From: Tubiluchus corallicola
Lineage: Eukaryota > Animalia > Priapulida
NCBI GenBank assembly: GCA_030141605.1
Contig: JAQGDQ010000012.1
Coordinates: forward strand, 886,359 to 950,358
Length of the DNA stretch: 64,000 bases
Reading direction: 5' to 3'
A program made the position numbers and the translations under genes. Positions 3,942-56,570 of this stretch are shown piece by piece. How positions within the stretch are numbered: the first letter of the stretch is position 1; the number at the start of each line of letters is the position of its first letter. The notes beneath the pieces are model-generated. The model was not told the DNA's origin, searched no databases, and worked only from the letters and a program-made list of their open reading frames with translations.

Positions 3942-5914
<1,973 letters not shown>

Positions 5915-14567: not shown

Positions 14568-15084
14568 TATTCCTTGGTTGGTTACTAGCTGTTGCAATAG
14601 TTAGTTGAAAGGTGAGTTAGACACCGTGACGCCAAACTTTTCGCAGTACATATATAAGGATTGTCTTATCTATCATCTTTCAGCAGACAACAAGTCTGCG
14701 AAGTTCCCACTCTATCGTGGGATACAAAACACTTGTCAGTGAGAGCAAACCGTAATTTTTGCAGCTCACGAAAACTCGTCTTCTTTGTTATAAAGATTTC
14801 TTATTTGGTGAAAGCAATTAAACATTTTTGAGTCCTTTGCATTTGATTTAAGTTTTTTAGGCGAACAGTTATTAAAAAAACATGTTTGTGGCCCCTGCAA
14901 CAACAGAGCAAACAGAATTAATTGCATCTTCTGCTAAAGTTCACTATGTAACAAAAGGCTCATTACGTAACAATGCACATTAACTAACAAAATACTGCAT
15001 AAATCACAAAATTTGTCAACTATGTAACAAATTGTGCATCATTGTGCTTCATTTATTATTTAACAAAGTGGTGCATTGTGTAAC

Positions 15085-18600: not shown

Positions 18601-19494
18601 ACGCGAAGAGAATAAGGACTATTTTTTATTTCAGTACTGATAACCTATATTTACATACGAAATGCTACAAAATAGGTTACGAGGTTTTTTATTTATATTT
18701 TGCACACCTAAAGTACATCAGCAACTGCACATTTAAGCCTACATGCCTGGCTTTTACGCTTCTTGATATAGGAAACCTACTTTTATAAAATTCTGATGAT
18801 TGTACATGAAATCTGTAAACGTTCCCTTAGAATAAATAATATAAAGTACAAGTGATGTTAATACGGTATATAATAGCATCTTGTATGTAATGTTGTTTTA
18901 ACGGACAGAAACCATAGTCTGCGCCCATTCTACTTCCGCGTGAAAGATTGCACTGATTTCAAAGTTCCTGTATTCGTGGAAGTGTCGTAGCGTCAACATG
19001 GACAGAATCAAACTTGAGGGACGGTAGTCATAATCATATCAGGACGCGTTCTTCTGTTTGTGATTAACCGCTTTTGACACTATATAGTTATAAATCTAGT
19101 TCGTTGTTTAATTAACAAATAAAACAAGACGGCGTTAAAATATACCGCTTAATCTCTAATAGCAATAAATTTGTTGACCTGACGTACAAATACTGTAATC
19201 TAATGTTTACGTGTACCAGACAATTATTATTTTATCCATGCGTGAAACATCGATATATTAGCAATTATAACTACTCGATCTACAATCGAACGACTATACG
19301 CGATACCTAAATAAACAAATTATTGCTGTATGAATGTTTTGCTCTGAAAATCGCGCCACGTTTGCCAAATCTTCAAGCGAATCACAATAACGTAATTTTG
19401 TTTAGAAATTGTTTCTGCACCTCTAAGTCGCTGAAAAGAACAAAAGAACCATGAAGATTACAAATCTGTAGTGACTGGACCGCTGACACTAGTT

Positions 19495-22265
19495 ATGGAC
19501 GAGTCAACGAATGAACCACAACACAAAGGGGTTATAGCAAACGTGGTTGAGAGAGAGGTAAGATATACATGTATATATATATATACATGTATATATCATA
19601 TATATATGTATATGTATGTATATATATATATATGATGTCTTATATATGCTTTTACTTCGTATTCTTTAAGTTAATTATCTAAACAGTATATCAGTTTTGA
19701 CATATTTTTTGCGTTTTTGCAAATTGTTAATGTTTTCTAACTGATAAGATAGCCAAATCTCCTAAACGTTTTTCATTTTCACTTTTCTAATTAAATTTTT
19801 AGGCTTTTACTGCAACACTTTTTTGTGAAAATCCCGTGATCGTAGTAAAACTTTTTTTAATGTAGTTTGGAGGTGCTATTTAAATATACATATATCTAAC
19901 ATTTTTCGTTTTTTATCTTATCTGAATTAATATTCGTCGGTAAGTTTCAGTTGTGTAGTCATGTTAATTGTTAGATTTTCGAGAAAATGCTTCACCATAT
20001 CACACAGTCTAGTAAGCAGTGTATCAGCAAACACTTTGCTCATGTCCTACACATGAAATTAAATGTTTGGGAAGTCGAAAAGCAAAAATATTGTTACAGA
20101 AAAATGTGTTATGTTCCTTAACAGACTCTGCCAGTTTCTTTTACAAAAATCCATTTTAGGCGGACCAAGATGTAATCAAGAAGGCGTTCATGATAAAAAG
20201 ATCTCTGGGAAAAAGTCGGCTGCTTCTTCAGCACTTTAATTACAAGCAACGATGGTTCATTCTCACTCAAGGATTCCTTATGTATTGTGACGGCACACCA
20301 GAGGTTAGTTAAGTTTCTCTATTCGAGGCCAATGGCCAATTCTTGTTAAAAGTAACAGTGAGAAAATGAGAATATGGATACAGCTTATATAACAAATTTG
20401 CGAGTATCAAATAAATCTGTTGAAACAAGTCGTTAAGTTAGTGAGATAAAACATTGATTTAAATCATTGATTGAATAATACCCAAGATTATAAAGATTAA
20501 AATTATTAATAAATGCTAATGATCACTCCAAGAGAACTGTTGGCTTTTAAAAACAGTGAAACAAATTCTGAGTGCACCTTTTTAAAAAAGTACGAACACC
20601 TTCGACAGAAATCGCGGAATAGATGCTAAATCAAACCCGACTAGATTGGCAACGAAATTAACAACTTCCTAAGTTCCTAAGGGCCTTCTAAATTTACCCA
20701 TTTTAATTGTACAGCGAGTTGGTAAACTGAAAGGGGAAATACAGCTGAAGAATGTAACATTCATTGAAGCGCTCGATGACGATGCTTTGGACAGAAAATC
20801 AGCTTTTCAAGTAAGTTTCTCAAAGGCAACAGTCATTATGAAAGGTATACTGGTTTTATGTAATCGACACGTAGACATACAGGGTGTCTCTACAATACAA
20901 GTCTTTTTAGAATAATAAAAATTGATTATAAAGACAGATATTAGATAAAATAATTAATTCTGACAATATCCGACACATTAATTTAAGTCTTTTACATTTA
21001 ATATAAATTTTTTGATTACATTTCCTTGATTTATAATAAGCCTGGCTTAAGGGCAAATCAAATATTTTTTTATAAAAGTCGGCATCAAATTTTACTGAAA
21101 AAAATACCATCAAAGTAAAACATTTTTTTAAATTTCGGTCAATCTAGCGGTAAATAGAAACTTGCTTTATACTAAGAGTGAGTGTCTAAGACGGAGATAA
21201 TTCTTTATGACAACACTTGGAACAATTTATAAAGAAGTGAAAATACATGATGTTTCAGTCTACTACTGTGAGCTACATTTATGTAAAAAAGTATAGAAAA
21301 TAGTACAAAGAAAAGGCACAAAACCACAAATTATCACTTTTACTCTTCTTGCAACTTTTTAGATTGGATACATTGAAGGAAGTTCTGATTTAACACTTTA
21401 CATCATTGCTAATTCCGATGTCCAACGAGAAGAGTGGTTACACGACATTAGACAACGTAAGCACAATTATATACAAAATTTTGTCATACATTTGTGAGAC
21501 AATTGCTTCATGAACATACATCGTGGTGCGATATAATGATAAACTAAGCGATGTTTCATGGCAACTGTTAAAGTCTCAATAAGACGAATTAAAGTTGTTC
21601 TGTGGTGCAGAAAGATTCATGTATAGAAATCAGCTAGCAGGGTTACCTGGCGATGGAGCGCAAATGTTTCTGTATCTTCTCAAACAGCCAAAGGGAAAAT
21701 GTCGATTGAAAAACGGAGAAATCGGTGCTGAACACATTATTAGGAAGAGGCTACCAGTAGAGGCGAGTATGGCAGAGGTGATCAAACGCCGAAACATTTA
21801 GTATTCAATACCCCTCTTGCTCAAAATGATCTACCAGCACGTATACAGGGCCTATAGGCTGCAATTTCAAGGAATTCATCGTTTTAGAGACAAAAAAATC
21901 TGCAAGATATTTGTTGAAATTCTGAATGATTTGATTCTCAACGACAAACTTGTTTTTAACGATACCTTTATCATATATTATCACTGTAATGTGGCGGGCA
22001 TAGACAGAAAAACTGTGTATCTTGCTTAGTAACTAAGTCTATAGAAATTTGTCATCTAAACAGGTTTGCATAACCGTTTAAATGCTCTAATCCTGAAAAT
22101 TATCATCCTGTCTTGTACGTACTCCCTCATATTACTAGTAAATTACATGAAATCTCACTCCATCTCCGAATGAATCTATCCATCCATCCGTCCATCCATC
22201 CATCCACCCATCTATCTATCCATTCATCCACTATCCATTCTTCCACCCACGCATCCATCCATCCT

Positions 22266-22306
<41 letters not shown>

Positions 22307-24300
22307 CACTCTTCCTCTTTCTCTCTCACTTTCTCTCTGTCTCTCTCTCTCTTAAGTTTTTATTTCTATCTTTTTTTAATCTATTTGAAGTGCATGTGTA
22401 TATGTAATCTAACTAATGCTTTTGTGTGATTTTCCAAATTGTATAATAAGGTAGAAATTATTGTCACCTTTTCACAAGAAATACGTTTTGTATTTTTAAA
22501 CTAATCTGTGAATTTGAGTGTGTAGACTATGCGCTACTTTTTTCGTTTAGGAAATTATTTTTAAGAATATGATCTTTTTTATTAACTAGTGTTTCCTGTT
22601 TGTTTATCTGATTTTGATATGTTTTAACTTTTCCGATGATCTTATCTGTTTTGTAGTTGATTTGTAAATTTGTGTATGCAGTATTTGTCACAATTTTCCC
22701 TCCTCCAAACAGAAGGACAGTTGTACATATTTTTATAAATAAAGATTTTAAATCTCTTTCTTCTTTCTCTTTCTCCTCTGACTCTCTTTCTCTATCCCTC
22801 TCTTGCCTAAAATACAAAAAATGTTTATTTTTGACCGGAACGGGACAAGTTATCTTTATACAATTACTATGACCTATTTGCCCTATTCTGTTCTTTGGCG
22901 GTTCAACGACTCTACTTTCTGCGTCATTTGCATTTATAAAGAGTATCAGATAATGATTGTCGGATATTTTACCTCACTCGTAATTTAAATACGACAATGA
23001 GTATCAAAATAAATAAATCTTCTTTGACTCCATTCTCTAACAAGTATGGAGGGTCATCTGACTCACGGTACATATTAGTCAGTGTTGATGTAAGACGTGT
23101 CATAGGTTAATGACATGTGATCGAAATAAAGAAGTAATTATATTTATACTTCATAAATCAACACAATCATTGTCGTAATTACAGGCATGCGCAGTCTATA
23201 ATTTCACGTTTTATTTGTTTAGTGTGTAGAAATAACAAAAATCTCAGGAAACGGTATCACTCATGCATATACACTCAGCAAAGCTGGAAATGTTGTGAGG
23301 AAACTGACAAACTTCACGAAGGTTGTTGCAGCACGACGCCGATTGTGCCAAAGGGTCCAGTGCCCAAACCAAGGATCCCAGAAATTCCTTCACGAAAAAA
23401 GGACCTAGCGAAAACCACTTTTCCAAGGCAAAACAATAAACGTGTTGTGGAGCAATTTTACAAAAAGGACGAGGCATGCGGCGTTCCTGATATGGTAGTG
23501 TTTTTTATTCTTCTCAAAATTAGCTTTTGAAACATTGCAATAAGCGTACTGATGTAATTGCCACACATCCAAACATCCATTATACATATACTTGCTGTTT
23601 GTGCATCTCAGTTTGAGCGATTCATCCAGTCAACTTGATAAGTAAGAAAACTATTTGAAATATTATTGCTATTACTAGGTTAATGGTTGTTTCATTTGCC
23701 TTCGCCACATAGATTTAAATTCATTCTTCGCCATCACCATGCATATTGTATAATGTAAACAGATGAGTTGAGCAAAACTTCTTCCCTTTGCGAAAAACAG
23801 CGAATAAGAGGCTGCATTCAAAAAATTTAAATACCACTGTAAAGACTACGTACAATGCGAACAATGTACACATTACATACCTAAGACCACTTATTTGTTT
23901 GAAACGCAAATCTGTTTAAAATTTAAACTATCATGCATTGATTATTATGATAACTTCCAGCTTGCAATTTGGTCCGATAAAAGTGCGTAACCGCGTGGGT
24001 TACTTTACTCGAACCTAGTGCCCACTGCCCACCCCTGCTTGAAATTGTGTCAACTTGTAGTGGGTCCGTCTCGAACTCACGTGTTTTTTCGCGAAACACG
24101 TGAAACAAAGTTTGTTGATAAAATTCTACATTATGAATGAGTAAAAGTAAATTAATGTGATATTGGTTTAATTTATTTGGTTTTAGAACGTTTTAAGCGT
24201 CGAAGTTTCTCAACCTGCCAATAATACTCGCCAAGATGGAACCCATGGAGGGAAAAAGCAAAAGAACAAAGCAACACCTCGCGTGAAAATGGCAGGTTAG
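19495..24300 (+). CDS. Tec/Btk-type PH domain + Btk zinc motif + proline-rich protein lacking SH3/SH2/kinase (260 aa as a stand-alone product)
   Basis: Exons 19495-19557, 20160-20303, 20715-20810, 21363-21456, 23223-23494, 24187-24300 are all GT-AG and in phase. PH: [31 protein letters not shown]...KGEIQL...AFQIGY...[15 protein letters not shown]. Btk motif: [24 protein letters not shown]. Proline-rich region: [17 protein letters not shown]. Confidence 0.85.
19563..19633. repeat. (TA)n microsatellite
   Basis: Interrupted TA run at the start of intron 1. Confidence 0.9.
22176..22351. repeat. Compound microsatellite (CATC)n-(TA)n-(GT)n-(CT)n
   Basis: Directly visible. Confidence 0.95.
24077..24103. 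promoter_or_regulatory. Paired palindromic E-boxes (TCACGTG...CACGTGA), MiT/TFE-type sites; candidate OCA2 promoter
   Basis: tcacgtgttttttcgcgaaacacgtga lies in a CpG-containing patch, ~190 nt upstream of the likely OCA2 ATG (24289). T-flanked CACGTG is the preferred MITF/TFEB site. Confidence 0.5.
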
Positions 24301-27300
24301 CTATATATTGAATTTTTAGTACTAGTTGTAGTGTAGTAATAGTATATTAGTAATAATGTCTCAATTAACGGTAGATCTTTATTACAACCTTATATTTCTA
24401 GTTTATTAAATTGAATAGTTCGCATGCATGCTCAGACCTCTGAAGATTAGATTTGAAAATGAAAATCTTGAAATAATATAAAACGTATAAATCAATTAAA
24501 GAAGTTGCAAGGGTTTCACTTCACATGTGGTCTGCACAATAAATTGGATTATTCCTCTTTTCTGCAAAACGTTGCGTAAATTTTGGCAGACTGCATTGTC
24601 ACAGAGAAAACATTAATAGGAAGCATTTGTCATATCTTTGGAGCTTTGCAATGAAAACTGTTATCTTTGAAAGCAATTTTATCCTGATAACTGTTTATTG
24701 TGTGTTGTCTCCATCTCCTGACACAAAGGAAAAAAATTTAATTTGCCTTTTTTAATAGAGCATATATTTTGTGAAGTTCACATGTCAGCTATCAAACTTT
24801 ATTTAAATCTTTAATTGAAAGAAAGCTCCTGGGAGCAGTCAACTAGGCGCCGTAAGTATATAAACAACTTAGTGCAGCTGTGCTCAAAAGGAGGACCACC
24901 ATTCAGTCCCTTAAAATTCTTAATCACTTTAAATATTTTTAAATCATAGTACACTTTGACTTACAACAACAGCCGATAGCAAATTCCGTATAAGTTAACT
25001 GTTTAAGAAACATGAGAATGAGGCTACAGATGGAACAAAAATTTCTTGCGTTTTACTAAATTTTGATGATTGTGCTTTACAATATCTTTTAGTGCAGTGT
25101 TTAGCAAATGTTGTTAAAGTGAAACCTTTAAAGATTGGCAAAATTGACCCAAAATATTTTTGGTAATTTGATTTTGAAGTTTTTAAAACTTAGTTTCTTA
25201 AATTTGATGACATTTTCTTGAATTATTTAAATGTTTGCGCTTGACATAAAATTTTTAATTTCAAATTCACAAAAAATAATTTGCTATCAGCTGTTGTTGT
25301 GAGCGTACTATCAATTAAAGTATTTAAATTCATTCGTGAAGCAGCTGCTGATATTTCCAACAAGTCTCTTCATCTTTATTTTCACCATTGCCAATGAACA
25401 ATAGATGTAGTTAGCAATATTTTCACCAAGCTAAAAGGAAGTAAATTAGATCTATGTCTATTAAAGTAAGTGGCTTGAAGAGTCAGATTCGAATTAATAT
25501 CTTGCTTCAAATAAATTTGGAAGAGAATAGCTGAGCAGTCAAATTAAATTAATGGATGACTGCCAGGAAAGTTGGACAGTTTCACCTGTTATACAGCACT
25601 GGTTATTTACTACTTTGTCATGTACTAACCCTACAGATTGAAACCTGACCCTAAAATATGAGAGCAGACTATAGAAAATATAGGCCAAATTATATGAATC
25701 TTACAGACTCGCAGCAGAGTGTAGGAAATGGAAGCTCCGATGTTCTAGCCATGTAGATTGAGACAACACTATAGAAATATAAAGCTTCCATCAATAACAT
25801 TTCCATTGCCTAATATAATATTATGATATTCAGGGAAAATTAATACATTCCATGTTTTACGTATCTTGTTAAGCAGAATGAAATGACATTTTGCACTGGC
25901 TGTACTCTGCAGCTTGAAGTTTGATGAATGAATTTCACATATGATCGTGTCTTCATGCTGTAATCCTGTTATATACTTAAAGAATAGGCCAAGTCTTCTG
26001 GAAAGTTCGGCTTATTTACTATGTTCGCAAAAATGCTAGAAGAATTTAGTAATAAAACTACAATAAGCACCTCGAGTAATTAGTAAAACCTCTTTAAAGT
26101 CGCTATTACTTCATGCTTGGACGCTCCCATTTTGAGAATGCCCACTTCTTCCAATGATGTCATTCACCCTGAAGAAAAGTAGCACACTGTCAATCTTCGT
26201 CAAAAGTATAATACGTTTTTACAAAAAACATTGATAGCTGATTTTGTAACATTTTTGCATGAATATTGGGTAAGCTGCTGAAGTTTGAATTAGTTTAAGC
26301 AGCGCGCACTCCCGGAAAGCCACGATGCGCTTATGAAAAGTCACAAAGTCCCCCAGTTGCATCATAATTTTCAAATGAATGGTGGCAATCACCATGCATG
26401 AAAATTTCTATTCGGAGGTAGTATATTTTAGATTTATGCTTTGTAGAAAGTTTTTTGCAAATTTGTTTGTTACATTCTTTTAAGTTTGAGTGATAACAGT
26501 AAAATAAACCCAAGAAACTGAGTGACTTGTTCTTTCTCTTATCTTGTTATGCTTTAGTTTCTTTATTTGAAATTGACAACTGGTTAATTACTCTTAATTT
26601 GTCACCAACTAGTTTGATATATTTAAAATCAACTACCGCATAATTGTTTTTGACTTTATTTGTACTTAATGGGTGTGATATTTTTATGTTTATTGCTAGT
26701 TTTATTTGCAGATTTCTACAGATGTCTAGACACAAATATGCACTAGACGTTACACTCATACATTCTTCAATACTCAGTAGTTGTTGTGTCCAAAAACTGC
26801 ATTTGAAATTAGCGAACTGAGTTTTTCAATTCTGAACTAGTAGTAACCTAGCTCACCCTCAATCAAGTAACAGCTAATCACACACACTAATACACACAGT
26901 TTGCTATAGGCGTCTGTAATATATAGTCAATTTTTATAGCCAAAAACTAAAAGTTGACTTAACAAAGCATCTACACTGTGAACATTGACAAGTTGTTGTT
27001 GTGTTCACTGTTTGACTTTTATCTGTGACATTTCCATTCATGTGTGTGCACAAGCCAGTCAGAAATGTGGTATAACTATTTTTCTTTTCTCTGATCTTAC
27101 GTCGTGATAAGCTTACTGCATGTTGTGCTTAATATAACATAAGAAATTACATTGATGACACCACTGCAAACATTAGTAAATTGGAGTTTAACTGAGTATA
27201 AATGAAAATGTTCAAAATAATTACAGGAGGTCGCTTAGCTTTATGCTGTGTATTAAACAAATATTTGTGTTATCTTCAATATTATAATGTTGCCTGTGTA

Positions 27301-30300
27301 GCACAGCAAACATTATTTTTATGATATCTTGCTGATATCTGAATTTTTGTACACAGTTGGGTTTATGTAAATTTATGGCACAAAGTTCATACTTCCTGTA
27401 TTAAGGACTCTGCTGTTCGAACCATTTTGTCGATGGAAAGTGAAACATCTTCCTTTAAATAATAACAACTGCCTTATTTTTAAAGTTGTAGTTCCTGTGC
27501 ATATTTATGAGCTCACTTTTGGTGTTTGTTTTTTTTGTTTTCCGTTTGTCAATAGCAAGAACAATAGCTTATAGTCCAGTTTGCATAATAACTTAAAAAT
27601 AGTCGTATGACTTGTCAAATTTTAGGTGAAATTGCACTAGCAACTTTAAATCATTGTTTAGCTACTTTTAATGTGGTGTTTTGCATATACATTTACTTGC
27701 AGTTAATGTATTTATAATTTTTGCACTACTTTGTTGATCACTAAAATGCTAGTGACATATGATTTTAGAACATCAAATTCACTATTATAAGTTATTCCGT
27801 ATTTAATGTGAATATAAAAATAAATTATTTTTGAGAACTTAAGTGACTTTGTGTCTTCACCAGCAAAGTAAACAAAGGATATTAGAAAATATGCAAAGGT
27901 TATTACCTGCATATTTGATAATAGTAGGACATATAGGTTCACTCTACTCATGGGCTTCATTGGTAATCTGCTGTTTCTAGTCGCTGTCATGGATAACGTC
28001 TAATTTTTGTGACAAGAAACGTGATGAGGTTTTTATACGAATTATGTGTATTACGTATTGTTCATATCGTCAAAAGTTAATGCAGTGCAGGTCATTTTTG
28101 ACCAGACTTAAAGTCAGTTGCTACATTGGTTTACTTGCAGTCCTTCTGATAAAAAAATGTCTAATAGTTTCCCATTAACTTTATTGCAGAAAAATCTAGT
28201 CCGCCAGATGATAGTGCTTTTTATCATCAGCTGCATAATTTGCCAAACTCTGCAGAATCTGTTCAGGTAACATACTATTCTTATTAGCATTGTTAATGAC
28301 AATTTTTCCTTAATGCAAAAATGAATAGACACTTTAGTGTAAAATTCCTGTTAAAATACTAAGGAAAACTGATCTAAAGTAGCTTGTTAAAATATACCTT
28401 ATCTAGTTCCGTTACCATCTGATAAAGAATTGAAGATAAAAAAAGCAGTAAATGAGTAGCTAAATTCAACATACCTGAAAAACAACACAAAAATTATGCA
28501 AAAAAGATACAGAAGTAAAATGGTGCCAGATATTTGATGATGGGTTCAATAACAGTCATTGATAAACTTGAAAAGTCCATTCATCATTTTCTGGTCTGCT
28601 ACCCTTGGAGTCTAGTGTTAGTCAGTTTGAAAGTGATTGAAAAATCCCAGTCAGTTTAACTCTGTGCCAAGTAAAGGGCACTCCCTTGGCAAGCTGACAA
28701 AGGAGGAGTTATTTATGCCTGATTAATGTTACTGCCCTGACTTTCTGTCTTTTCACTTGCTACACAAGACCTAATTTTGATATTAACAGGATGACAAACG
28801 ACGTGTTGGTACATCAGAAAATCCTATGGATTACCTAGCACCACCTGACGACCTCACTAGACAAGACACGTGGTTCTATATCAAAGAATCTGGCAGGCAA
28901 ATAAAGGAACATGAAGAAAAGCATTTAGATGGGCTGCCAGAAGCCACAGAAAAAACTCCCTTACTCAGGAAATTGTGAGTTGTTTAGACCTCTTTAAATT
29001 GCATGTAATTGCTGAGCTAATAAAGAGTAATTGACCACAAGACCTCCAGAAAATGTCGTAAAAGTGCTATCTTTCTTTGTGAATGTTTTATCACTTATAC
29101 ATTTTTAAAAGTCTAAAACTAAAATTTTTAAAATATTCTATCACAGATTAGAACAACACTTCTGGAATAAAATGGAAAAGCCTGGTGTACACTGCATTAA
29201 CTGTTACTTTTGTGTATTAATCTTATTTAGGTTAGTGACTTGGCTTCCTACTATCCTGTAGCAAATCTTATGCTTTTGATGTTTCAGATCTGTTATAAGC
29301 TTAGACAGTGATAGCAGTGACGTGTCAGATGCCTGGTCCACTTGGTGGCAGAACTGCTGCAATACATGTAGAATGTGTGCCTGTGAAATTTCTGACAAAA
29401 CAAAAATAAAAATCAATAATTTTAAAATATTTCTCCTGGCAGCTGGTGTATTGTTGTGTTGCGTAAGTAGCTTTAAATCTTGGATTCAAAATTCCCATAA
29501 ATAATACTTTTTCTTCTCATTTAAAACACAGCGTAATATTTTTTATAAGTGAAAATACTTCACAAAATGCATACAAGCTTTCAAATGTATAAGGTAATGA
29601 AAGCTTAGCTTCTTTATTTTGATGAGTATTGGTGCACGAAATTGCTGTATTGTTCAAGTGTACATATTAAACAAACTTTCTGTTTATCTTTCTATCAATT
29701 ACTAATTTGTCAGAAGTCAATAATGAATTAGTTTTTTATCTTGAGAAGGAAAAATATTATTTTAAAGTAAACAAAAATGAGTTAAATGAGTATGAAGGAA
29801 TATAATTTACCTGCAAATACAAACTGATAATTTATCATTAGCAAACTTGCAAGTTAGCAAATACATACATGCGAGTTTATTGCTGCACCTATGCTTACAT
29901 AAAGCCATTATGCAAAGGGCTGTCAGATAGAATCATAGAGCGACAAAATAGTCAATTAAGTACTATTTTTGTTTCCGTTAAGTAACTAAATATCTGTTCT
30001 TGTCTATGTTAAAATGCAGTTACCATTTTTTGCATGCTAATATTGAATAAGTGGACAGTGGTATTTCAGTGCACTAATTTGATTTTCAACTAACTCGCAT
30101 TCTTTGCAGTTAATTTTCAGTATAGCTCCTGTGTCAGATATTCATTGGTATCAGTTTGCCGTCTCGGATGATGTTGATAGGTGTATCCTTTTTTCTCTGA
30201 ACTAAAATATCTATGTTTTGTGACTCATTTAGTTAATGCTTAAGAGTAGCCCTGAACAGTGAATTGTGTACTGAGAACTTGTGTTTGTTTCGTAGTGCTT

Positions 30301-36300: not shown

Positions 36301-39300
36301 CGAAAATATAATTATATGCATTTTTCTGTACCTTTTGTATAGAAAATGGTTTACAGTTAACTAATTTTTTTGGAGAATTCTCAGCTAGCACTATAAGAGC
36401 AAAAGTGCTCCTGTCAATGCTTAGTTATACAAGAGAAAGTAGAATGATTCCTGATTGCAACACTGCTTGTGAATTGTTCATTTACTTGTATGTTTAATTT
36501 TGACAACATGTTTGATTTGTTTGAATTTATTATACCAGAAATTCACCATGAGATTGAGATGTGGAAGAGAACTAAGAACTCGGTAATGTATGGCACTCGT
36601 GATGCTGAGCGTGTCCGGGCATTACTGGACAGCAAAATGACTGATTTAGAAACACGCATGATTGAAAAGAAGCAGAGTATAGCAACTGGGTGAGATAAAC
36701 TTTAACAGTGTTGTTTAGCCCTTTTTGTCTAGTGAAATTTTGGTTGTTGTTTTCTGTAGGTGATTCTAGATGGCGCCAGTTCATAGATACTGTTTATTAC
36801 CTGGCACATTTAGTTCTCACCTGTCAACTAACATTTAGAGGCTGTTTAACACTTTCTCATTTAGTAATATTGCAGCCATAACATTTTGAGTGACATGTTA
36901 ACACCTAATTAATGCACTAACAATCGATAAATATAAATGGCACAAGAGTTGTAAATTGTAGATTTAAAGGCATTTTATGTCAACTCTCATTTGTTTAAAT
37001 AATCATTCTATATTTCTATATCTCTTATCTCATTCATATTTGTTGTTTATCAATATTGCTGTCACTTATCTGTTTCCATAACCTAGTATTATTAGATAAA
37101 GTATAAGAAAGCAAGCGTGAATTTTATATCATAAGCTGATTGTTTCTTTTGCCAGATTGTTTCCTTTATTTAAAATGATAAAGGTAAATGTTTATGTTTG
37201 CTCATGTGGATTTTGAATTTTGTTACAGCATCTCTGTTAGCTGTTTCTTTACAAATTAGTGGTACCTAGTTGCAAATTTCCAAATTTGTGAGATTTAAAA
37301 AACTTTTTTCAGTAATACATTCGAGGAAGATTTTCAGAGCAAGTTGGCACAACTGCAAAAGGAGGTGAATAAAATATTTTCAATGAAGTCTGCCATTTCA
37401 TGTCATTTTGTTATAATAATTAGCAGAGATTGAAATGATTTAAGAGACTTGAGATTAAGTGGTAGAAGTGATCTAATCTAGCATAGAATCAGAAATTGTA
37501 TATTTTTTATGTAGAGCAATTTCTAAATTGGGTATAATGTAATGAATTTTTAGAGAAAAATGGGAAAGTGCAAAGTTTAATGTCACTCACACATGCACAC
37601 AAGTTTTTTAATTTCAAGTAATAATTGTAAGTAAATTGTGTGTGTGTGGGGGTGGGGGGTGCGTGCGTGCGTGTGTGTTTTTGCATGCCTTTATGTGTGC
37701 ATGCGCATTTGTGCATAAGTGCATGTGTTTGTGCACATGTCTATGTGCACAAGCACAAATACTTGAATAATATTCATTTTTGTATTTATGCATGTTTTAC
37801 ATAAGTTTTCTCCACATGCCAGCCAGTGAGATAGGCCTACATTTTTACCTGTCGTAGTCTCATTTTTAGTGATGACATTTTGTTTCAGTATAAAATTAAG
37901 GACAAGGTTCTTTTGATCAAAAGTGCAGCTGTGTTGGTGTGCTGCATTTTGCTGTTTTTTCTTGAACCTTTGGAGGCACTGCACATTAGTCTCGGTAAGT
38001 GATTAGTTTCATAATGTATGCATTATTATTTATTAAGCTTGAATATGTGTCAGATTTATTACTTCTGTCTGAAGCTGAAGTTGTGTATAACTTCTCAGGA
38101 GATTTTTGCATCTTAAATTTTGATTCCCAAAAACTTTTTATGCTTAATGGGCTAGAATTAGTTCTTTAATTCCACTTTAGTGCTAGAACTCCTCTAAGAT
38201 TTTTACTGAATGAGAGTGATATGTTTTTATAGTTTAGTGGCCTGCTTTTCTTGCATGTTTGTTTTTGTCAAATGCTTTTTTAAATGTGGCCAAGTGCATC
38301 ATCTCAGCAGACCCTAACATTTTTAGGCAATGTATTAGAAAAAATGATTACATCCATGTGCCATTGCACCTCTATTACACCCCATTGAATTGTGTATAAA
38401 GTTCTTTGTGCTGTTATGTGGTTTAGAACTGTGATGAGTACGCAGTAAATGATTATTTAGCATACTAACAGTGAATGCACAGTTTCTGTCATTAGCATTG
38501 ATGATATTGTCATATCATAATTTACCGAACTGTTTTAGTAGGCTAAAAGCATGAAAAATTTACATTCATAATACTTATATTATTATAATACCTTAATGGC
38601 AAATGCAAGTTCCATTGTCCTAAAAGACATATTTCTGTTTGACTCCATATCAATGCAAAGTCTTTAATTTCTTTTTTAAGTGCCTCCACTTATTTTACAA
38701 TCAGCCTTTGGCATATTTATAATTACTTTGCAAGTTTGGACATCTGCATTTACAACATCACATTTTAATATTTGTAGCTTGGATTGCAATTATGGGTGCT
38801 ATCATATTACTAGTTCTTGCTGACAGAGATGACTTAGACAGTGTTTTTCACAAAGTGGAGTGGACGACTCTAATTTTTTTCGCTGCTTTATTTGTTCTCA
38901 TGAAGGCAAGTTTAATAAAAATGGCTATGGCTTCTTATGTATTTCTAGCTTTGAAGTTTTAAATATTTCACAACTATTTAAATATTTGCTGTACGCACAG
39001 TAATAGCGTGAAATTTTTTCTTTAAAATTGATTTTAATCCGAAACCATTTTTATTTTTGCAGATTGAAGAGTAGCTTTTTTATTATTTTACGTGTAGAGT
39101 TTTTGTATGTTTTATAAGTAAATCTTGTTTGGTTCCATACATCTCTATTGTAATTTTACCAGGGAACCAGATATGATATAATTCATCAGATATGATTTTG
39201 TATTCTTGACAAAGTGTATTTTTTGTCAATATTTTGACCAGTATATGCGATAGCTGTTCATTTAAAACTTGTGACACATTACTAGGTTGAATACACCGCT

Positions 39301-42300
39301 TTAAAGAAAAGTAACAAACTTTAGTTGATCTTCATGATATGCCATCGTTTCATTAATAGCTTTTTGTCAAGTTGCACACCAGTGTGGCTATGGGCGTCCT
39401 TCAGTGTTTGGTATGTGACACCCGAACAACAGACTTCTGTTCAATACACAAATGGGATGAACAAAATTTTAAGGGTAAAACTGGACGAGAACGAACAAAT
39501 AGATAACAGCAATACATGAAAAGGAGCAGTGACAAAAACTTAATCAGTGTGTTAAATAGTTGATAATAGTTAAAATTGGAATATAGCCGGCATAGTCACC
39601 TGGAAGGTGTCGTGATTGGACAATAAATACGTTCCTACAAAACATGTCTCACCACAGTTAACTGAAACATGTGACACTATCCGGTTGCTAAACATATCAA
39701 AGATGGATGCACGCAGGACATGATATAAAAAGGGCACTTTAATAACAGCTACTTTTTTTAATACATTTTGATGCAATAATTATAAGGGAAAAAAGCTATC
39801 AAACCATTTACTGACCTTCACGTTTTATGGTTTTGTTTGTTACATGTTTGTCAGACTGGTTATTCAATAAGTAAAGTAAAAGACTACTAGGCTTAAATGG
39901 CAACTAGTAATGTCAAATGGCACTAATTTTTTCTCCAAATATATAACATTTATATGTATAATAAATTACTGACTGCTTGGCAGTGTTTTCATAGATACTT
40001 GAAGGAATAAGACATGGTGTAAATATTAACAATAGGTGCAATTGCTCTTGGAAAAAAGTGGCCATTTAGGTCATTATGATCGGTTGCCTACTTTTGCTGA
40101 CGTGGTTAACATAACCTCATTCTTAGGATACATAAAATACAAGAAAGGTTTAGATTTCCTTTACCAAAGTAGACAAAATACACAAAGTAAATATAAACAC
40201 ATGTTGAACCTGAGGAAACTAGATAATAATACATTTGGATGCTGCAAAAGTAGATTTAGATTAAAGATAGGTAAGAAAAAAGTAGATGTTCCAATAATAG
40301 GTATTTTTATTTTTTCTTGTTGCAGGGAATAGAGAAAATGGGTTTGTTAGACTTCATTGGGAATGCTGTTGCTGATTTAATTGGGGGTGTACAGGGTTCA
40401 AGGCGACAACTTCTTGTGGCTATACTGCTAATATTATGGGTGTCGGCACTTGCTTCCAGTTTCGTAGACAATATTCCATTTACAACTGCTATGGTAAGTG
40501 CTTATCTTGGTTGTGAGCTATGAATATATTTATATACATATTCTTGAGTACTGAAACTGCCATATTGTACAAGAAAGGCAGACGAATTTTGAAAGCAGTA
40601 TTTAGCAACATAATATCACAGTTAGTCTGTGTCATTTTACTTTACCCAGATTTAAAAGCGTTTTGATGTAGTGACACTAGAGCCACTGGTACAATTGATA
40701 CAATTGGAGCTATCGGTACTCTATCTAAATTTGAAAGATACGGTTTGGTATTGTAATTGTGTTTGCAGAAGAAAAAGCAAACGGTAACTCTTTCATAAAA
40801 ATTTCTGGAGTGAAAATTATTCATTCCAACAGTGGAGCAAGTCTAACTTTATTTGTTGCTGCACCACTAGAACAAGATAAAAATACTATAAAGTATTATT
40901 AAATTAGAATGCCAGAAAAATCTCTGCACCTCATTGGGACTTGAACTCAAGACATTCTGCTTTATCAGGCAGTTACGCTAACCACTCAGATGCTCTGACT
41001 TTGCACACAAGAATTTATACTAAAAGCCAATAGAAGTCTGTATGGGAATCACAGTCCTTACAGTATGAAGACATAGTACGAGATCAATTATTGTAATACA
41101 ACTAAAATTAAAAAGTATGAAAAGTTTTTTTTTGCACTCGAGCTCAAGACCTTCTGCTTTCCTGGCAACTTTGATAACCTTGGAAACATCACAACTTTTT
41201 TTGGACAGAAATGTACACTATAAGCCACTATAGGTCTATTAATGGGTAATTAGAGTCCACACTGTATCCAAGACATAGTAAGAAATCAGTTATAATGTAC
41301 GAAAGTGATAGTAAATTAGACAATCAGAAAAATTTTGGTTTCAAGTTTCTTGGAGAGACTAGAAGAAACGCTGAGTGGTGTCCATACAACTCAGGTCCCA
41401 CCATTGGTAAGGCAGACTATTTTTGAACCTAGATAAATTTCCTATTAGTCCTTTATGAATGTGGTTATCTTAAATTTGCGTAATTTATTTTAATAAACCA
41501 ATTTTACTTTATTATTTTTTCTTTTAGATTTTCTTTCGTTGAAAAATTATTTGAAAATCTAATTTATGCCTATAACTTACCCACGTAGGTCTTGTTTATC
41601 TGTTAAAATACCTTGTATGAAATATAAATTTGTGCTTTTAATCAGATAATTGCATATCCACAGATTATATAAACTTTCTTGTTTGATAATTTTTTAACTG
41701 AAAAATGTAAAATTATTAATGTGAAATTTTAAATTTTTTTCTGCAGAAAATTTCTCAAAAATATTTCTTAATGGGATTGTGTCATATTATTAGGTGACAA
41801 TTATTGTTCAATTGGCTGAAGATCCGAAGCTCAACCTACCTGTAGCTCCTCTTGTTTGGTCTCTTGCTTTTGGCGCTTGCCTTGGAGGTAAAAAGTCTAT
41901 GTGCTTTTTTATATTTTTATAACTTAGGTTATTTGTCCATACCATAGTTAAATCATAACAACCCATATTCTCAGTGTTTATAGTACTTGAACTCATATTG
42001 AAGTTAAACATAGACTCGCAATGCTTTTGTATGAAATTAGCCAAAAGTGAAAAACTTGCCATCTTTGACAAATTTGCATTAAAATTAGGAACCTGTGCAT
42101 CTGTAAATTTAAGTAAAATTGCCAGTTAATCATGGTGTAGCCAAGCTAAGACTTTTATCTTAAGTCCCTGTAATTATAGTCCCCCAAAATGTTATTCAAC
42201 AATGTCTTTAAATCCACAATTATTTGCTTTAAACAAAGCCACTTACCAAACTAATTGATGGCTGCTATGATGGCCATCGCAACAGATATACAGTGGCCGC

Positions 42301-45300
42301 CGCTTATTATGGACACGGTTATTGTGGACAGCGGGTTATTGTGGACAACTCGCGAGGGACGGAATTTTCCCCTAATAAAATCTGCCGGTTAATATGGACA
42401 ACCGCCGCTTAATATGGACAGCGAACATTCTTGGCACGTGAACCAGCCGTGCCAACCACGGCGTGCGCGCGTAATTGAAAAGAGCTTCCCGCTCTGCTGC
42501 CTGTGTGAGTCATTGCATCAGTCAGTTCGCCGTTTGCCGTGGCCTTGAGAGCTTCGAAACTGTGATAACTTCCTTCCGTTCAAGGTTGAGAGAAAAGTTT
42601 CCTGCCAAACAAACTCGTCTGACTTCTTTTTTTCAATAAAACAGGAGACGAGTTGATACAGACAGTTTTTTGCCTTTTTTAATGAAGGGGAAGGGTCTTC
42701 ATGGGTCACTTCGCTTAATATGGACAGCCGCTTAATATGGACATACACTGCTGGCCCGAGGTGTCCACAATAAGCGGCGGCCACTGTAGTTCCTACTTCC
42801 TAAACTTCTTGCCAGGAATTGAAAACTTCTCTATAGGTACAGTAGGTGCTGCTTAATAGACTTACTTTGGGACCAAAGTCTTTTGACCCATTTAACCGAT
42901 GGGCGTAGCATTACTGAATGTGTCACCAGCTTACTATGCACTGCAAAGGTTTTTAATGAATTTTAGAAACGAAGTAATGCCTAAATCCCTTTGTGCAGTT
43001 AAAAATTAGAAAAAATATCTTAAAATATTAATTTATATAAGTGAATTAGCAACATAAGTATATAAGTATACTTTTCTAAATCACGCAAGTCTGTTTATTT
43101 GCAAAAATAATGAAAATACGTCCAAGGTCGGCTGATTCATTTTTTTCATGACAAGTTGGGTCAGAAAGTTTCTCATAATGATAAAAATGTTTAAAACTGT
43201 TGTTGTATGATACACAAATAATGTGCTTGAACTGTTGTGGTGACCGTATTTCCCCGCATGAGACTTATTGTACTGTCCCTGCATCCCTGGCATAACAGCA
43301 AGGGCAAACCGATTAAACTTTCTGGAAAGACAGCCAGAGCTTCTAAAGCAAACACCTAGGCAAGTGATTAAATGTTTCGCTTCCAGGAATTCTTGGGTAA
43401 CAAAGTTAATTGCAGAGGACGAGCGGGTCAAAGTAAACCATTAGGCTACCATATTAGCATATGATAAACGTTCCTGCTTACATTCAAAACGGTACTCAAC
43501 ATGATTGTTTCTATGCATATTATAGGACAAAAGCGAACTAAGATGATATAAGTCTTAAAAGCTTATTAGTCACACAAAAGTGACTTATTGAAGCATGTGA
43601 GCAGGTGACTAAAAATATTGAGTCAATTATGTGGAGTTATTTGAGTCAATTGGCGACAATTTTTATGTACATTTGAATAGAAGCAGCCCGTACCAGGTGT
43701 TTTTGAGTCAATTAACTGATTGAGTCTATTAAGCGGCGCCTACTGTATTTACTGAATGATTTGGTTTTTTAAATGTTTTCTGTCTTGGTACGAATTCCGC
43801 AGAAGGTTTTTTATATGGTTGTCTTACTTGCTGGCTGTCCATGGCCATTAAATGAGCACTTGATATCATCCATGCAAGAAAGTTAAAGAGTTCATAAGCT
43901 TAGGTGCATTGGACAATGCTGATAGCTTTTAGTTTTTGTAATATGAATGTAACTTACACTAACAAAATATAGCCACAAATTCCATTACATACAAAAGTTC
44001 TAAATGGAAATTTTCCGTTTGTGGCTTATTTATTTTTTTACCACATTGAACTATTTTGCAAAGTCAAATCTAACTTGTAATGGCATCTTGTGTTAAAAAT
44101 GCATTGGCTTAAAGAGGCTGCAAAGTTGACCTATTGATATTAACTAGGTTAAATGTCAATGTACACATGTGTTATCAGTTGTAATTTTGCTATAGAGAAA
44201 ATTATGTCTTGTGTAGAATTTTCTGACATTCATGAAAATCGGTGGCAGCTCATAGCTAAATTTTGTGGGGTGCTGCTTCAAAAAATTTTTAGCCATTGTT
44301 TTAATCCTGTGTAAAACGTAACAAACATGTAATTTAATGTTGTAGTTATATTTGAAGATTGGGTGTTGAACGACCTCTTTTCTTAACTGCAAATTTCTCA
44401 TTGAGAGATAGCTGTGAAAAATTAAATTTTTTTTGAGCTGTTGTAGTTCACTTATAGTCACAGAACTTATTTCTCGGGGATGCAAGGCGTCCATTATTAA
44501 ATAATTTATGTTTTAAGCACACATGCTAAGTTTACACTTTATTACATCCAAGAATATGACGGCACACAATAAGCATGTGGCTATTGTTACTGTGCCGGCG
44601 ACAGTACTTTTCTACCTAGTAGCAGACGATAGCGTACAGCGTGTTATCTCAGACATGTGCGCATGGGCGTGTGCGTACAATAGCCAAACACCACGTTGCT
44701 TGGGTTGTGAAGCAAATTGTACTTTCCTCACATGCTCCTCACAAGTATAAAGAAAGAACTAACGAAAAAAGACATATTGAATATTGACTTATTATATTAA
44801 ATATTATCGATAATATTGAGTGAACGTACGGGGTGCTGCAGTACCACAGTGCCTATACACGAGCCGTCACTAATGAAAATAGACTCGGGTATCCCTTTCC
44901 TATTACCCGTCGAATAACCGGGTACTTGATTGGTTTGCTCTACCATGGGCTTACAATTGATAGAGATAATGGCTGCTGGCTTGCTAATGCTTTAATGCAG
45001 TTTTCTAGAGGCTGCTTGTGCAGTCCTCTGCAAAATGTAGCTCTATGTGGCCTGTAAAATGCCCGTTACAGTGTTATGGCCCTCCTGTGAATTCTAAATA
45101 TGCCTATAACACCCACAGTTGAACGGGATCTCCAACCATTACCGGCGCCGCTACCCCTGGCCCATTCCCAATCTCCAGAAATGAGAAGTACCAGTTTTGC
45201 AAAAAAAAAACAGTTAGAAGTGGGCAATTTTTGCAGGCGCCTGTTACGGCATTATGGCCCTCCTAAATAAACGATTAATGAGATGGCACTAGATGAAGAC

Positions 45301-46571
45301 CTTTCGTTTAGTATATAGAAAATGGTGCCGTCGTTGGAGATGCAGCTCGAATCTTATATATATAAATTTATCCAAATACCACCAAAATTAATTATTCAGA
45401 TTTCAAGTAATAACGAGTAATAATTTACTAATGAACAACTCTAATCTGTTTGAGTACATTCAGCACATTCAAAGTACTTCCATATATTACATTTCTTTGC
45501 TGAAGCCATTCTGTGTACCTGCTAACTAGTAGAGCTGCTGACTAGAATGAGTCAGGAATGCGAAATGTTCGTCGTAAGTGTCGTCATTATTGTTGACCTG
45601 CTGCTCTGCAAATGCGTCTGAAGATGGCATTTAAATTACTTAAACAAGGGATATCCAGTTAACAACAATGTCTGCCTTTTGCATTGTTGGAACTGGGTAA
45701 AATTATTAAAATACCCTGCTACCTGCTGGAAACGTTATGTGAAAACAATACTTTAGAAGAAGATGCTGTTGAAAAAACAAACGTACATGTTAGTAATCAG
45801 TATATCCAAAAATGGATATCCAATTAACAATAACGTCTGCCTTTCTCATTGTTGGAACTGGGTAAAATTATTAAGATACCCTGGTACCTGATGGAAACAT
45901 TACGTGAAAACAATACTTTAGAAGAAGATGCTGTTGAAAAAATAAATGTACATGTCAGTAATCAGTGTGTCCGAAAATGAATGAAGTATAAACAAGCCTT
46001 GAATGCCTGGCAAGCAAACAAGTACACACAGAACCTTTGTTTTGAATATTAGACAATTTTATTTTTATTGTGTCTGTGTTTAACACTTCGTTGCTGTCGT
46101 GTAGATCTACATATTTATATTTTCTTGTCTGTTTTTTTTCTAGGAAACGGAACTCTAATTGGGGCTTCTTGTAATGTTGTCTGTGCTGGTTTAGCAGAAC
46201 AGTATGGTTACAAATTTACATTTGCAGACTTCTTCAAGTAAGAATACTTGTGGTTTTTTAATTCCGCTTTACACAAAAACCAGTTTTATGAACTTATAAT
46301 ACATATATAGATTAATATATATATATAGTATGGCTGCAAGTTTACAGTTACAGCTATTTTCAAACAAGCACAATAACGCTCAGTTCTCTTTTAAGAAGAC
46401 GAGTGTTAAAATATTTATTAGTGTGACTAAATCAGTGTGTAAGAATAATTGTTAAATCTTGCATTGCATTGTTTATCTAGGATTGGTTTTCCAATGATGA
46501 TTATGTCTGTTATGGTAGCTACTTTATATTTACTCATATGCCATGTTGTAATTGGCTGGAATGATGTCTAA
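24289..46571 (+). CDS. OCA2: P protein / OCA2 (SLC13/ArsB-type melanosomal anion transporter), ~804 aa
   Basis: In-phase exons: 24289-24295, 28190-28266, 28790-28974, 29288-29462, 30110-30182, 30723-30868, 31072-31184, 31614-31773, 32433-32504, 33086-33208, 34760-34884, 35213-35351, 36134-36269, 36539-36689, 37313-37364, 37889-37994, 38778-38905 (GC donor), 40326-40493, 41794-41887, 46144-46237, 46481-46571. Motifs: [93 protein letters not shown]. The start exon is less certain than the body. Confidence 0.93.
24960..25303. mobile_element. MITE-like inverted-repeat element
   Basis: cttacaacaacagccgatagcaaatt (~24960) is the near-reverse complement of aatttgctatcagctgttgttgtgag (~25278-25303). 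Confidence 0.55.
32190..32222. repeat. (CA)n microsatellite
   Basis: Directly visible. Confidence 0.9.
32864..33038. repeat. Tandem duplication of a ~87-bp unit (2 copies)
   Basis: taatcacgataaacacagcagtaacagtcagtggaaaagtcttcaagtccatcaggtac...atttcttt occurs twice. Confidence 0.9.
33818..34135. mobile_element. Tc1/mariner-type MITE with TA target duplication
   Basis: ta|cagtcatatctctgttgtc ... ggaaacagaggtactactg|ta; imperfect TIRs with CAGT ends. Confidence 0.65.
40910..41300 (-). mobile_element. Two degenerate tandem tRNA-derived SINE-like copies
   Basis: Minus-strand B-box-like gagttcaagtccc. Segments such as ctcaagac.ttctgcttt and agacatagta.ga.atca.tta recur at ~210-230 bp spacing. 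Confidence 0.4.
42291..42786. mobile_element. Young Tigger/pogo-type MITE (496 bp)
   Basis: 26-bp TIRs CAGTGGCCGCCGCTTATT(A/G)TGGACAC with one mismatch; TA on both flanks; internal repeats of ttaatatggaca. Confidence 0.9.
42840..43745 (-). mobile_element. Tigger/pogo-like internally deleted DNA transposon
   Basis: TIRs cagtaggtgctgcttaatagact / agtctattaagcggcgcctactg, flanked by TA. The interior has a degenerate CENP-B/HTH-like stretch ([21 protein letters not shown]). Confidence 0.75.
45650..45978. repeat. Tandem duplication of a ~165-bp unit (2 copies)
   Basis: gatatcca.ttaacaa...gttggaactgggtaaaattattaa...gaagaagatgctgttgaaaaaa is repeated. Confidence 0.9.
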
Positions 46572-49500: not shown

Positions 49501-50405
49501 CTTTTTAAATGTTAAGTTAGTTTGATAGCTTATAAAAGGATGAAGTACAAAACGGAAACAGTTTTAAAAGCTTTCATGAAATCAGTATATACATGAAATA
49601 GCATCCATTCTACAATTTTTGTTAATACATTTAATTATAAAAGACTGCCATATAGACTTGATATTCATGCTAACTATCGCATAAAATTGATATTGGAACA
49701 TTGCCTAGCAACATGGTGCAATGTTAACATTCACATTCTTTACGGCCCAGCATGTCTAAAAAAGAAACAGTTTTTATATAAAAAGACGTTACACTTTTTA
49801 CAACATTGATCTTAAACAAAGTCAGTTTAAAATACAGGTGTACGTCGTTTTAAAGCCTGTACGTGTACTGTCCATGAGTGCAGCTGACAACGGTAACATG
49901 ATAACTGCTAGGAAAATTATTCGGTAACAATCAAAGCTCGTTAAATAACTGCCAAGAAATTATTAGAAAAAATTCAACTAAAAGAAAATGAAAATTGAAA
50001 AAACAAAATTTGAACATACAAGAAGTGAATAAGCTACTATTTCAAAGTAACCACTTTCAAATGGATTAAGGACGATACAACTGTTCTGTACAATTGGTGC
50101 ATTTAGGAGTCATTCCAAAACAATACACAGTCATTAATTTTTCATTTATGTCATTAATCCAGCATCATTGTGTAGTTTGGCAACTTAATGTGTCTATACT
50201 TTTTAACTTACAATATCGAATGAGTATATACAATGAGTAATTCAAGAATGATAATTCAAATCGTGATTTTAGAAAGGATCCAATACGACTGTACAACACA
50301 ATATTTCAGACAGGCAGCAAAAGTCTCATTAAATGGAAGTGAGCAACTCTTGCTTGTCTTCTCGAACCAAAGAGATTCCATTCTGCAATCACGGTAGCAA
50401 TGTGC

Positions 50406-56398: not shown

Positions 56399-56570
56399 AA
56401 GCGTTTTTCCAATGTAGACCAACGTAGAGAAAGAAAGCAATCGCTCCGCAATACACTGAATACAGTAGGCACTAGGCACGCTACGCAGAGGACGATCTCT
56501 ATTGGTTAAATTTACAATTCGCGCACGTTGGTGCCCAATAGGAGCGTAGTATCAACGATGACGTGTTTAA
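56399..56570 (-). promoter_or_regulatory. HMGB non-coding first exon and promoter
   Basis: Minus-strand donor TT|gtaagt at 56398; two CCAAT boxes (attgg ~56501, ccaat ~56535) and a CRE-like atgacgtg (~56558) in a CpG-rich patch. An acceptor lies upstream of the ATG near 54549. Confidence 0.6.

What the first reader, a model, noticed from the sequence alone, without database searches (positions are those of the whole stretch)
19495..46571. Shared exon allows an in-frame Btk-type PH-TH / OCA2 fusion: a possible phosphoinositide-sensing melanosomal/lysosomal anion channel
Seen in sequence: the last PH-TH exon ends ...AAA ATG GCA G|GT TAG. Without splicing it stops at 24300. With the G|gttagc donor (phase 1) it joins exon 28190-28266 (acceptor actttattgcag, donor CAG|gtaaca, phase 1 to 0), which continues in frame into all OCA2 exons (...[14 protein letters not shown]...ESVQDDKRR...EKTPLL). 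The resulting ORF is ~1060 aa with no stop. Established: the OCA2 N-terminus is cytosolic, and Tec-family PH-TH modules bind PIP3. Inference: one locus could give three products (PH-TH alone, OCA2 from ATG 24289, and PH-TH-OCA2). I know of no described PH-OCA2 architecture.
Basis: partly seen in the sequence, partly recalled or inferred. Interest (0 to 1): 0.85.

Follow-up and report, generated by a model that had tools for sequence, protein, structure and literature searches.

The report
Kinase-less Tec module abutting OCA2 gene
The intact front end of a Tec/Btk signalling kinase, predicted to bind membrane lipids and lacking its kinase part, sits about 650 bases ahead of an ordinary OCA2 pigment-organelle transporter gene; the two can be spliced into one protein on paper, but they are likely two genes, OCA2 likely having its own promoter, and the fusion is untested.

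Summary
The reading frame is real on paper: 26 exons give an open 1,061-aa PH-TH-OCA2 protein. The weak point is not the shared-exon donor 24295, which is strong. A GC donor at 23473 would rescue it (1,054 aa). Three lines point to a separate OCA2 start near 24100-24290: CpG o/e falls from 1.0 to 0.54 there (0 of 500 permutations), a pair of CLEAR-like E-boxes lies about 190 bp before ATG 24289, and OCA2 from that ATG is complete. In-frame joins are cheap here: several routes are open, and 1,294 of 5,000 shuffles of exon 6 stay open. None of 226 OCA2-like hits, including 106 of fusion size, carries PH or BTK. No RNA was available, so nothing tests the junctions. Best reading: a kinase-less Tec PH-TH gene in tandem with ordinary OCA2 (0.55). 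A real long PH-TH-OCA2 isoform stays open (0.3). The scan had not noted this on other DNA.

The parts
19495..19557 (+). PH-TH exon 1 (ATG 19495)
   Evidence: donor score 10.9; CpG-rich stretch at 19000-19500 just upstream (o/e 1.6)
20160..21456 (+). PH domain exons 2-4 (20160-20303, 20715-20810, 21363-21456); basic residues K34, K50, R52 kept
   Evidence: Pfam PH; Tec PH 2lul; 39% identity over 163 aa to Tec-type PH-BTK-SH3 fragment P0122; residues
23223..23530 (+). Exon 5: BTK zinc motif (H145, C156, C157, C167), proline-rich stretch, linker. Possible ends: GC donor 23473, weak GT donor 23494, or read-through to the stop at 23528-23530 (234 aa)
   Evidence: Pfam BTK 31.4 bits; ITK/Tec/Btk hits; donor scores
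23642..24186 (+). Possible untranslated intron: strong GT donor after 23641 (past the stop) to the acceptor at 24187
   Evidence: donor 8.0, acceptor 8.0; not tested by RNA
24077..24103 (.). Inverted pair of T-flanked CACGTG E-boxes (10-nt arms, 7-nt spacer) in a CpG-rich patch: likely OCA2 promoter element of CLEAR/MiT-TFE type
   Evidence: 37 of 5,000 local shuffles; CLEAR element in PMC6355916 passages
24187..24295 (+). Exon 6, the disputed shared exon: strong acceptor, 102-nt open frame, two out-of-frame ATGs, ATG 24289 in good context, strong phase-1 donor
24405..24543 (+). Three poly(A)-type hexamers (24405, 24495, 24538): possible end of PH-TH transcripts
   Evidence: 181 of 2,000 shuffles reach 3, so weak
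28190..46571 (+). OCA2 exons 7-26 (803 aa from ATG 24289): cytosolic tail with acidic dileucine signal at aa 339-344 of the fusion, first TM, luminal domain, CitMHS/ArsB-type core
   Evidence: 44% identity over 687 aa to gar OCA2 P0026; Pfam; hydropathy
30183..30722 (+). Minor-spliceosome (U12-type) intron; branch box at 30703
   Evidence: consensus motifs recalled; Oca2 named as a minor-intron gene in PMC12956336 passage
38906..40325 (+). GC-AG intron of OCA2
   Evidence: required for the open frame; scores 11.2 when read as GT

Best explanation
The locus holds an intact Tec-type PH-TH module without SH3, SH2 or kinase exons directly ahead of a complete OCA2 gene, and these are likely two transcription units: OCA2 likely starts at its own CpG-rich, E-box-bearing promoter near 24000-24250 and uses ATG 24289, while the PH-TH gene likely makes a 234-260-aa soluble adaptor predicted to bind phosphoinositides. 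Shown: exon structure, domains, open frames, splice-site strengths, the CpG step and the E-box pair. Inferred: that the CpG step marks gene-body methylation behind a constitutive OCA2 start; that a MiT/TFE factor drives it; that OCA2 is sorted by its dileucine signal to lysosome-related organelles and sets their pH; that the PH-TH protein docks on 3-phosphoinositide membranes and acts as adaptor or decoy. PH-TH transcripts that fail to end would be spliced into OCA2 exons, often in frame, so a minor read-through fusion mRNA is expected without being a selected product.
For: CpG o/e change point at 24200-24600, from 1.0 to 0.54, 0 of 500 permutations; exons 1-5 0.87 vs exons 7-26 0.51; introns 1-4 0.81 vs introns 6-25 0.55. 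The same step lies ahead of the neighbouring HMG-box gene (0.50 vs 1.23). Gene-body methylation marks CpG-poor housekeeping genes in crayfish (PMC6172769 passages). 2 of the window's 4 T-flanked E-boxes lie 20 bp apart about 190 bp before ATG 24289 (37 of 5,000 shuffles). OCA2 from that ATG has a tail of about 135 aa before TM1 (vertebrate estimate 132-201, n=45) with the E..PLL signal (58 of 68 vertebrate proteins). Donor 23494 is the weakest of 25. In-frame routes are plentiful: exon 5>6, 4>7 (934 aa) and 5>8 (999 aa) are open; 4>6 and 5>7 are not. Exon 6 shows no coding signal (null fraction 0.35) and no SH3 remnant. 0 of 120 and 0 of 106 OCA2-like hits carry PH or BTK.
Against: A GC donor at 23473, in the right phase, scores 10.3 when read as GT. 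It is the only unused GC site at 10 or more in 3,186 exonic nt (3 in 23,891 intronic nt), close to the gene's real GC donor at 11.2. The acceptor at 24187 is strong (rank 40 of 1,471) and opens a frame that runs into OCA2; 1 of 320 intronic ATGs has that. A first exon needs no acceptor. Two out-of-frame ATGs precede ATG 24289, and no AATAAA or ATTAAA lies between the 234-aa stop and exon 6; each is weak alone (1,071 of 5,000 and 327 of 2,000 shuffles). The E-box test was made after the boxes were seen, and their window-wide count is at chance (4 vs 3.3). The splice matrices rest on about 22 sites. An own OCA2 promoter does not exclude a longer isoform.
Confidence: 0.55

Rival explanations
1. 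One gene with two promoters. The upstream promoter makes a 1,054-1,061-aa PH-TH-OCA2 protein (exon 5 joined to exon 6 through the GC donor 23473 or the GT donor 23494); the internal promoter makes plain OCA2. The PH-TH module would hang on the cytosolic tail and tie trafficking or activity of the transporter to PI3K lipids or to SH3-bearing partners.
For: Open frame; strong in-phase GC donor and strong acceptor; base composition turns intron-like right after 23494 (T 0.57 vs about 0.2 before); the module has no other same-strand partner in the window (0 SH3, SH2, kinase, C2 or RasGAP hits in about 195 plus-strand ORFs of 40 aa or more); nothing hydrophobic before aa 387, so the topology works. 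The fly Btk29A locus makes forms that differ at the N-terminus (PMC3344829 passages).
Against: GC donors are rare (about 1-2% of introns, recalled); the GT donor is the worst in the locus; exon 6 has no coding signature and is open in 26% of shuffles; the PH-TH part is not CpG-depleted like the OCA2 body; no such architecture among 226 OCA2-like hits. PIP3 is mainly a plasma-membrane lipid (recalled), which fits poorly with an organelle transporter.
Confidence: 0.3
2. The main chimeric product is a PH-only-OCA2 protein of 934 aa, made by ordinary read-through splicing from exon 4 to exon 7 (second-to-last exon to second exon), skipping exons 5 and 6.
For: Both sites are good (6.4 and 7.8) and the join is in frame; this 2-2 pattern is the favoured one for neighbouring human genes within 30 kb (PMC4450057 passages).
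Against: Phase agreement has a 1 in 3 chance; exon 5 has one of the strongest acceptors in the locus (rank 4 of 1,471); the rule comes from human cells.
Confidence: 0.07
3. The PH-TH exons are the 5' part of a full Tec kinase gene whose other exons lie outside the window, or they were placed here by an assembly error; the closeness to OCA2 is then incidental.
For: The closest relative found goes on into an SH3 domain (P0122); no whole genome was available to look for the rest; no listed contig of run X1 spans the region.
Against: It needs OCA2 nested on the same strand plus further genes inside one intron; exon 5 has no good GT donor before its stop; X1 has depth in 28 of 30 bins and its listed pieces match with 0-1 differences, though X1 may be the source sample.
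Confidence: 0.08

Closest known systems
OCA2 / P protein (vertebrate; gar P0026)
   Same: 44% identity over 687 aa; CitMHS core; long N-terminal tail with E..PLL signal; a minor-spliceosome intron (PMC12956336 passage)
   Different: Here an upstream PH-TH module can be joined in frame; 0 of 226 OCA2-like hits have it. Transport activity was not tested.
Tec-family kinases (Tec 2lul, ITK 2e6i, BTK 1btk; unnamed fragment P0122; fly Btk29A)
   Same: PH + BTK zinc motif + proline-rich stretch, with basic and zinc-ligand residues kept
   Different: No SH3, SH2 or kinase exons found in the window, so it is not a kinase as far as seen
ESM Atlas cluster 'Btk29A-like isoform X1' (256 aa, PH 100% + BTK 100%, 81 members, arthropods)
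   Same: Same size and domain set as the stand-alone product
   Different: Score 0.76 is a lead only, the query was P0122, and members may be split gene models
Read-through chimeras of neighbouring genes (cis-SAGe; PMC4450057 passages)
   Same: Same-strand neighbours under 30 kb apart with an in-frame 2-2 join available
   Different: Described in human cells; here the gap is about 650 bp and the 3' gene's first coding exon carries a strong acceptor

Membership tests
OCA2 / P protein | CitMHS/ArsB-type multi-pass core with best hits to OCA2 | tested here: met
OCA2 / P protein | Long N-terminal tail with an acidic dileucine signal before TM1 | tested here: met
   aa 339-344, TM1 at about 387-419; PMC3418312 passages
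OCA2 / P protein | Organelle location and anion conductance or pH control | not testable with these tools
   needs expression and physiology
Tec-family kinase | PH domain followed by BTK zinc motif and proline-rich region | tested here: met
Tec-family kinase | SH3, SH2 and tyrosine kinase domains | tested here: not met
   none in the plus-strand ORFs of 40 aa or more that were scanned (most ORFs inside OCA2 introns were not scanned); P0122 SH3 finds nothing in the window. Outside the window: untested
GAP1/RASA family (PH-BTK at the C-terminus) | C2 and RasGAP exons upstream of PH-BTK | tested here: not met
   0 hits in upstream plus-strand ORFs
PIP3-binding PH domains | Basic signature in the first two strands (rule recalled) | tested here: met
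   K34, K50, R52 align with Tec 2lul; binding itself not tested
True fusion gene or read-through chimera | Transcripts holding exons of both units on one molecule | not testable with these tools
   no usable RNA run
True fusion gene or read-through chimera | Same architecture in relatives | tested here: inconclusive
   0 of 226 OCA2-like hits, but no close relative of this animal was reached

The most novel reading that the evidence does not exclude
The front half of a Tec kinase gene has been captured as an alternative 5' module of OCA2. An upstream promoter and a GC-AG intron give a 1,054-aa PH-TH-OCA2 protein, the first OCA2/ArsB-family transporter with a built-in phosphoinositide sensor, while a CLEAR-type internal promoter keeps making ordinary OCA2. 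PI3K signalling could then redirect or gate an organelle pH regulator.
Probability: 0.3. Interest if true: 0.72.

Novelty: new variant of a known kind. Interest (0 to 1): 0.42.

Why it matters
If the fusion is real, a lysosome-related-organelle transporter of debated mechanism would carry a signalling-lipid sensor, an architecture not seen in 226 OCA2-like hits nor in two paper searches, and the locus would show exon capture across an internal promoter. If it is not, what remains is an ordinary OCA2 and a modestly unusual, intact kinase-less Tec module. One long-read or junction-read experiment decides it.

Tried and rejected
No RNA holder listed. Run X1 behaves like low-depth DNA contigs, with no listed piece across any junction; X2 touches only an intronic repeat (4 records); neither bears on splicing. 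No whole genome is held. Homologue search with exon 2: 3 candidates, none scored. Representative search with exon 5: 2 hits, one spurious repeat protein (P0121) and one Tec fragment (P0122). Two metagenome scans: 147 and 490 pattern matches, none confirmed. Atlas search with exon 5: no usable hit. The idea that the end of exon 5 plus exon 6 is a decayed SH3 was rejected (1,265-1,898 of 2,000 shuffles score as well in local alignments; no PDB hits). The Markov coding score was uninformative for exon 6 and has low power: the real exon 7 also scores below zero. The alignment of exons to P0122 misplaced exon 2 and was not used. A standard donor at 30180 broke the frame. Paper searches: OCA2 + PH domain + invertebrate + fusion, 0; OCA2 or pink-eyed dilution + pleckstrin or Tec homology, 3 listings, none on topic by title and abstract start; truncated Btk29A, 0. 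No structure or complex was predicted. The taxon was not determined here. Supplements were not opened; those of PMC12956336 may give the position of the Oca2 minor intron.
Full report
1. Observation. I rebuilt the gene from coordinates. Twenty-six exons from 19495 to 46571 give one open frame of 1,061 aa with no internal stop. Two non-standard introns are needed. One is a minor-spliceosome-type intron at 30183-30722, with both the donor and the branch-box signature (motifs recalled); a standard donor at 30180 breaks the frame. Oca2 is named as a minor-intron gene in chordates and several arthropods (PMC12956336, one passage). The other is a GC-AG intron after 38905.

2. The two halves. Exons 2-5 encode PH + BTK motif + proline-rich stretch: Pfam PH (21.1 bits on one exon, under the cut-off) and BTK (31.4 bits), hits to Tec, ITK and BTK structures, and 39% identity over 163 aa to an unnamed PH-BTK-SH3 fragment, P0122. 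Basic residues K34, K50, R52 and the H-x10-C-C-x9-C zinc ligands are kept (their roles are recalled). No SH3, SH2, kinase, C2 or RasGAP domain appeared in about 195 plus-strand ORFs of 40 aa or more (most ORFs inside OCA2 introns and all shorter exons were not scanned). Exons 7-26 encode an OCA2 orthologue: 44% over 687 aa to gar OCA2, first hydrophobic segment at aa 387-419, and an acidic dileucine signal at aa 339-344 of the E..PLL form found in 58 of 68 full-length vertebrate hits. The human N-terminal tail is cytosolic and bears the sorting signal (PMC3418312 and PMC10372470, passages). The latter paper notes that OCA2 is needed for chloride conductance but models as an SLC13-like symporter, so 'channel' is not settled.

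3. The weak link. The shared-exon donor 24295 is strong (8.2; rank 20 of 1,675 GT sites), and so is acceptor 28190. That junction is simply the first OCA2 intron. The fusion depends on joining exon 5 to exon 6. Unspliced, exon 5 stops after 234 aa, and the only strong GT donor nearby (23641, score 8.0) lies past that stop. Against this, a GC site at 23473 is in phase and scores 10.3 when read as GT. It is the only unused GC site at 10 or more in 3,186 exonic nt, with 3 in 23,891 intronic nt, and it gives an open 1,054-aa fusion. Composition turns T-rich right after 23494. Acceptor 24187 is strong (rank 40 of 1,471) and opens a 102-nt frame into ATG 24289; 1 of 320 intronic ATGs has an in-frame acceptor that good. 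But 1,294 of 5,000 composition-matched shuffles of those 102 nt are also open, and an untranslated intron 23642-24186 would explain the acceptor without coding. In-frame joins are cheap in this locus: exon 4>7 (934 aa) and 5>8 (999 aa) are open too, while 4>6 and 5>7 are not.

4. Evidence for a separate OCA2 start. CpG o/e is 1.0 over 17500-24300 and 0.54 beyond, with the best change point at 24200-24600 (0 of 500 permutations; 1 of 500 in the narrow 22400-28190 test). The step holds in exons (0.87 vs 0.51) and in introns (0.81 vs 0.55). The neighbouring HMG-box gene shows the same step, 0.50 over its body and 1.23 upstream (its start site is not known). Gene-body methylation of CpG-poor housekeeping genes is described in crayfish (PMC6172769, passages), and methylation is predicted for Priapulus (PMC8821070, passages). 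Earlier scan notes call this genome priapulid-like; I did not test that. An inverted pair of T-flanked CACGTG boxes lies at 24077-24103. They are 2 of the 4 such sites in the window (total at chance), and 37 of 5,000 local shuffles give two (test made after seeing them). Each matches 7 of the 8 bases of the CLEAR element bound by MITF, TFEB and TFE3 (PMC6355916, passages). ATG 24289 has A at -3 and G at +4 and gives a tail of about 135 aa, at the low end of the vertebrate estimate of 132-201 (n=45). Two out-of-frame ATGs upstream, and the lack of AATAAA or ATTAAA in 23531-24186, lean the other way but are weak (1,071 of 5,000; 327 of 2,000). Three hexamers in 24301-24600 lean weakly towards a PH-TH end there (181 of 2,000).

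5. Relatives. Of 1,077 hits to a conserved exon, the 120 listed (named ones vertebrate, 93-850 aa) have no PH or BTK. Of 106 OCA2-like proteins of 934 aa or more, found among 7,994 scored candidates, none has PH or BTK. Several carry unrelated domains (trypsin, methyltransferase, SANT/SWIRM, oxidoreductase), which I read as merged gene models. Local BLAST and a profile over all 228 fetched proteins found only P0122. No close relative of this animal was reached, so a lineage-restricted fusion would not have shown. An Atlas cluster of 256-aa PH+BTK-only arthropod proteins exists (score 0.76, lead only).

6. RNA. None was usable; this counts neither way.

7. Mechanism and verdict. Most likely (0.55): OCA2 is expressed steadily from its own promoter and works as in other animals, while the upstream kinase-less PH-TH gene makes a small membrane-docking adaptor or decoy. 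Leaky termination would give some in-frame chimeric mRNA, as is common for close same-strand neighbours (PMC4450057, passages). Second (0.3): a two-promoter gene with a real long PH-TH-OCA2 isoform through the GC donor. Lesser: a PH-only read-through product (0.07), or a split Tec gene or assembly error (0.08). The fusion would be new if real: two paper searches found no description, and the scan had not noted it on other DNA. On present evidence it is a testable possibility, not a finding. Interest 0.42.

Noticed in passing
window 30183-30722 (+): Minor-spliceosome-type intron in OCA2, so this animal likely keeps the U12 spliceosome; the 73-nt exon before it starts at about the residue where human exon 6 starts (inferred through the gar alignment).
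   Followed up: partly
window about 26000-26540: High-copy interspersed repeat in the first OCA2 intron (contig depth in the thousands in run X1, also hit by X2).
   Followed up: no
window 23221-23224: One X1 contig (depth 16) lacks bases at the exon-5 acceptor: possibly a paralogous or allelic copy, or a chance short match (table 4).
   Followed up: no
window 32864-33037: Tandem 87-bp duplication (96% alike) just before OCA2 exon 15.
   Followed up: no
window 50309-53041 (-): HMG-box gene with an acidic tail, tail to tail with OCA2; CpG-poor body and CpG-rich stretch at 55500-57500.
   Followed up: partly
window 13896-14600 (-): 235-aa ORF with a class I SAM-dependent methyltransferase domain.
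   Followed up: no
window 58197-59225 (+): 343-aa ORF with a repetitive N-terminal part and a C-terminal rhodanese domain.
   Followed up: no
window 60488-61921 (-): Exons of a protein with a death-like domain followed by a likely transmembrane segment.
   Followed up: no
window 582-4175 (-): CpG-poor multi-exon gene without Pfam hit; one exon has a zinc-finger-like Cys/His pattern recalling SLX4/UBZ proteins (recalled, untested).
   Followed up: no
window 33500-34150, 42280-42790, 44500-45300: CpG-rich inserts in OCA2 introns, probably young repeats or transposon remnants.
   Followed up: no
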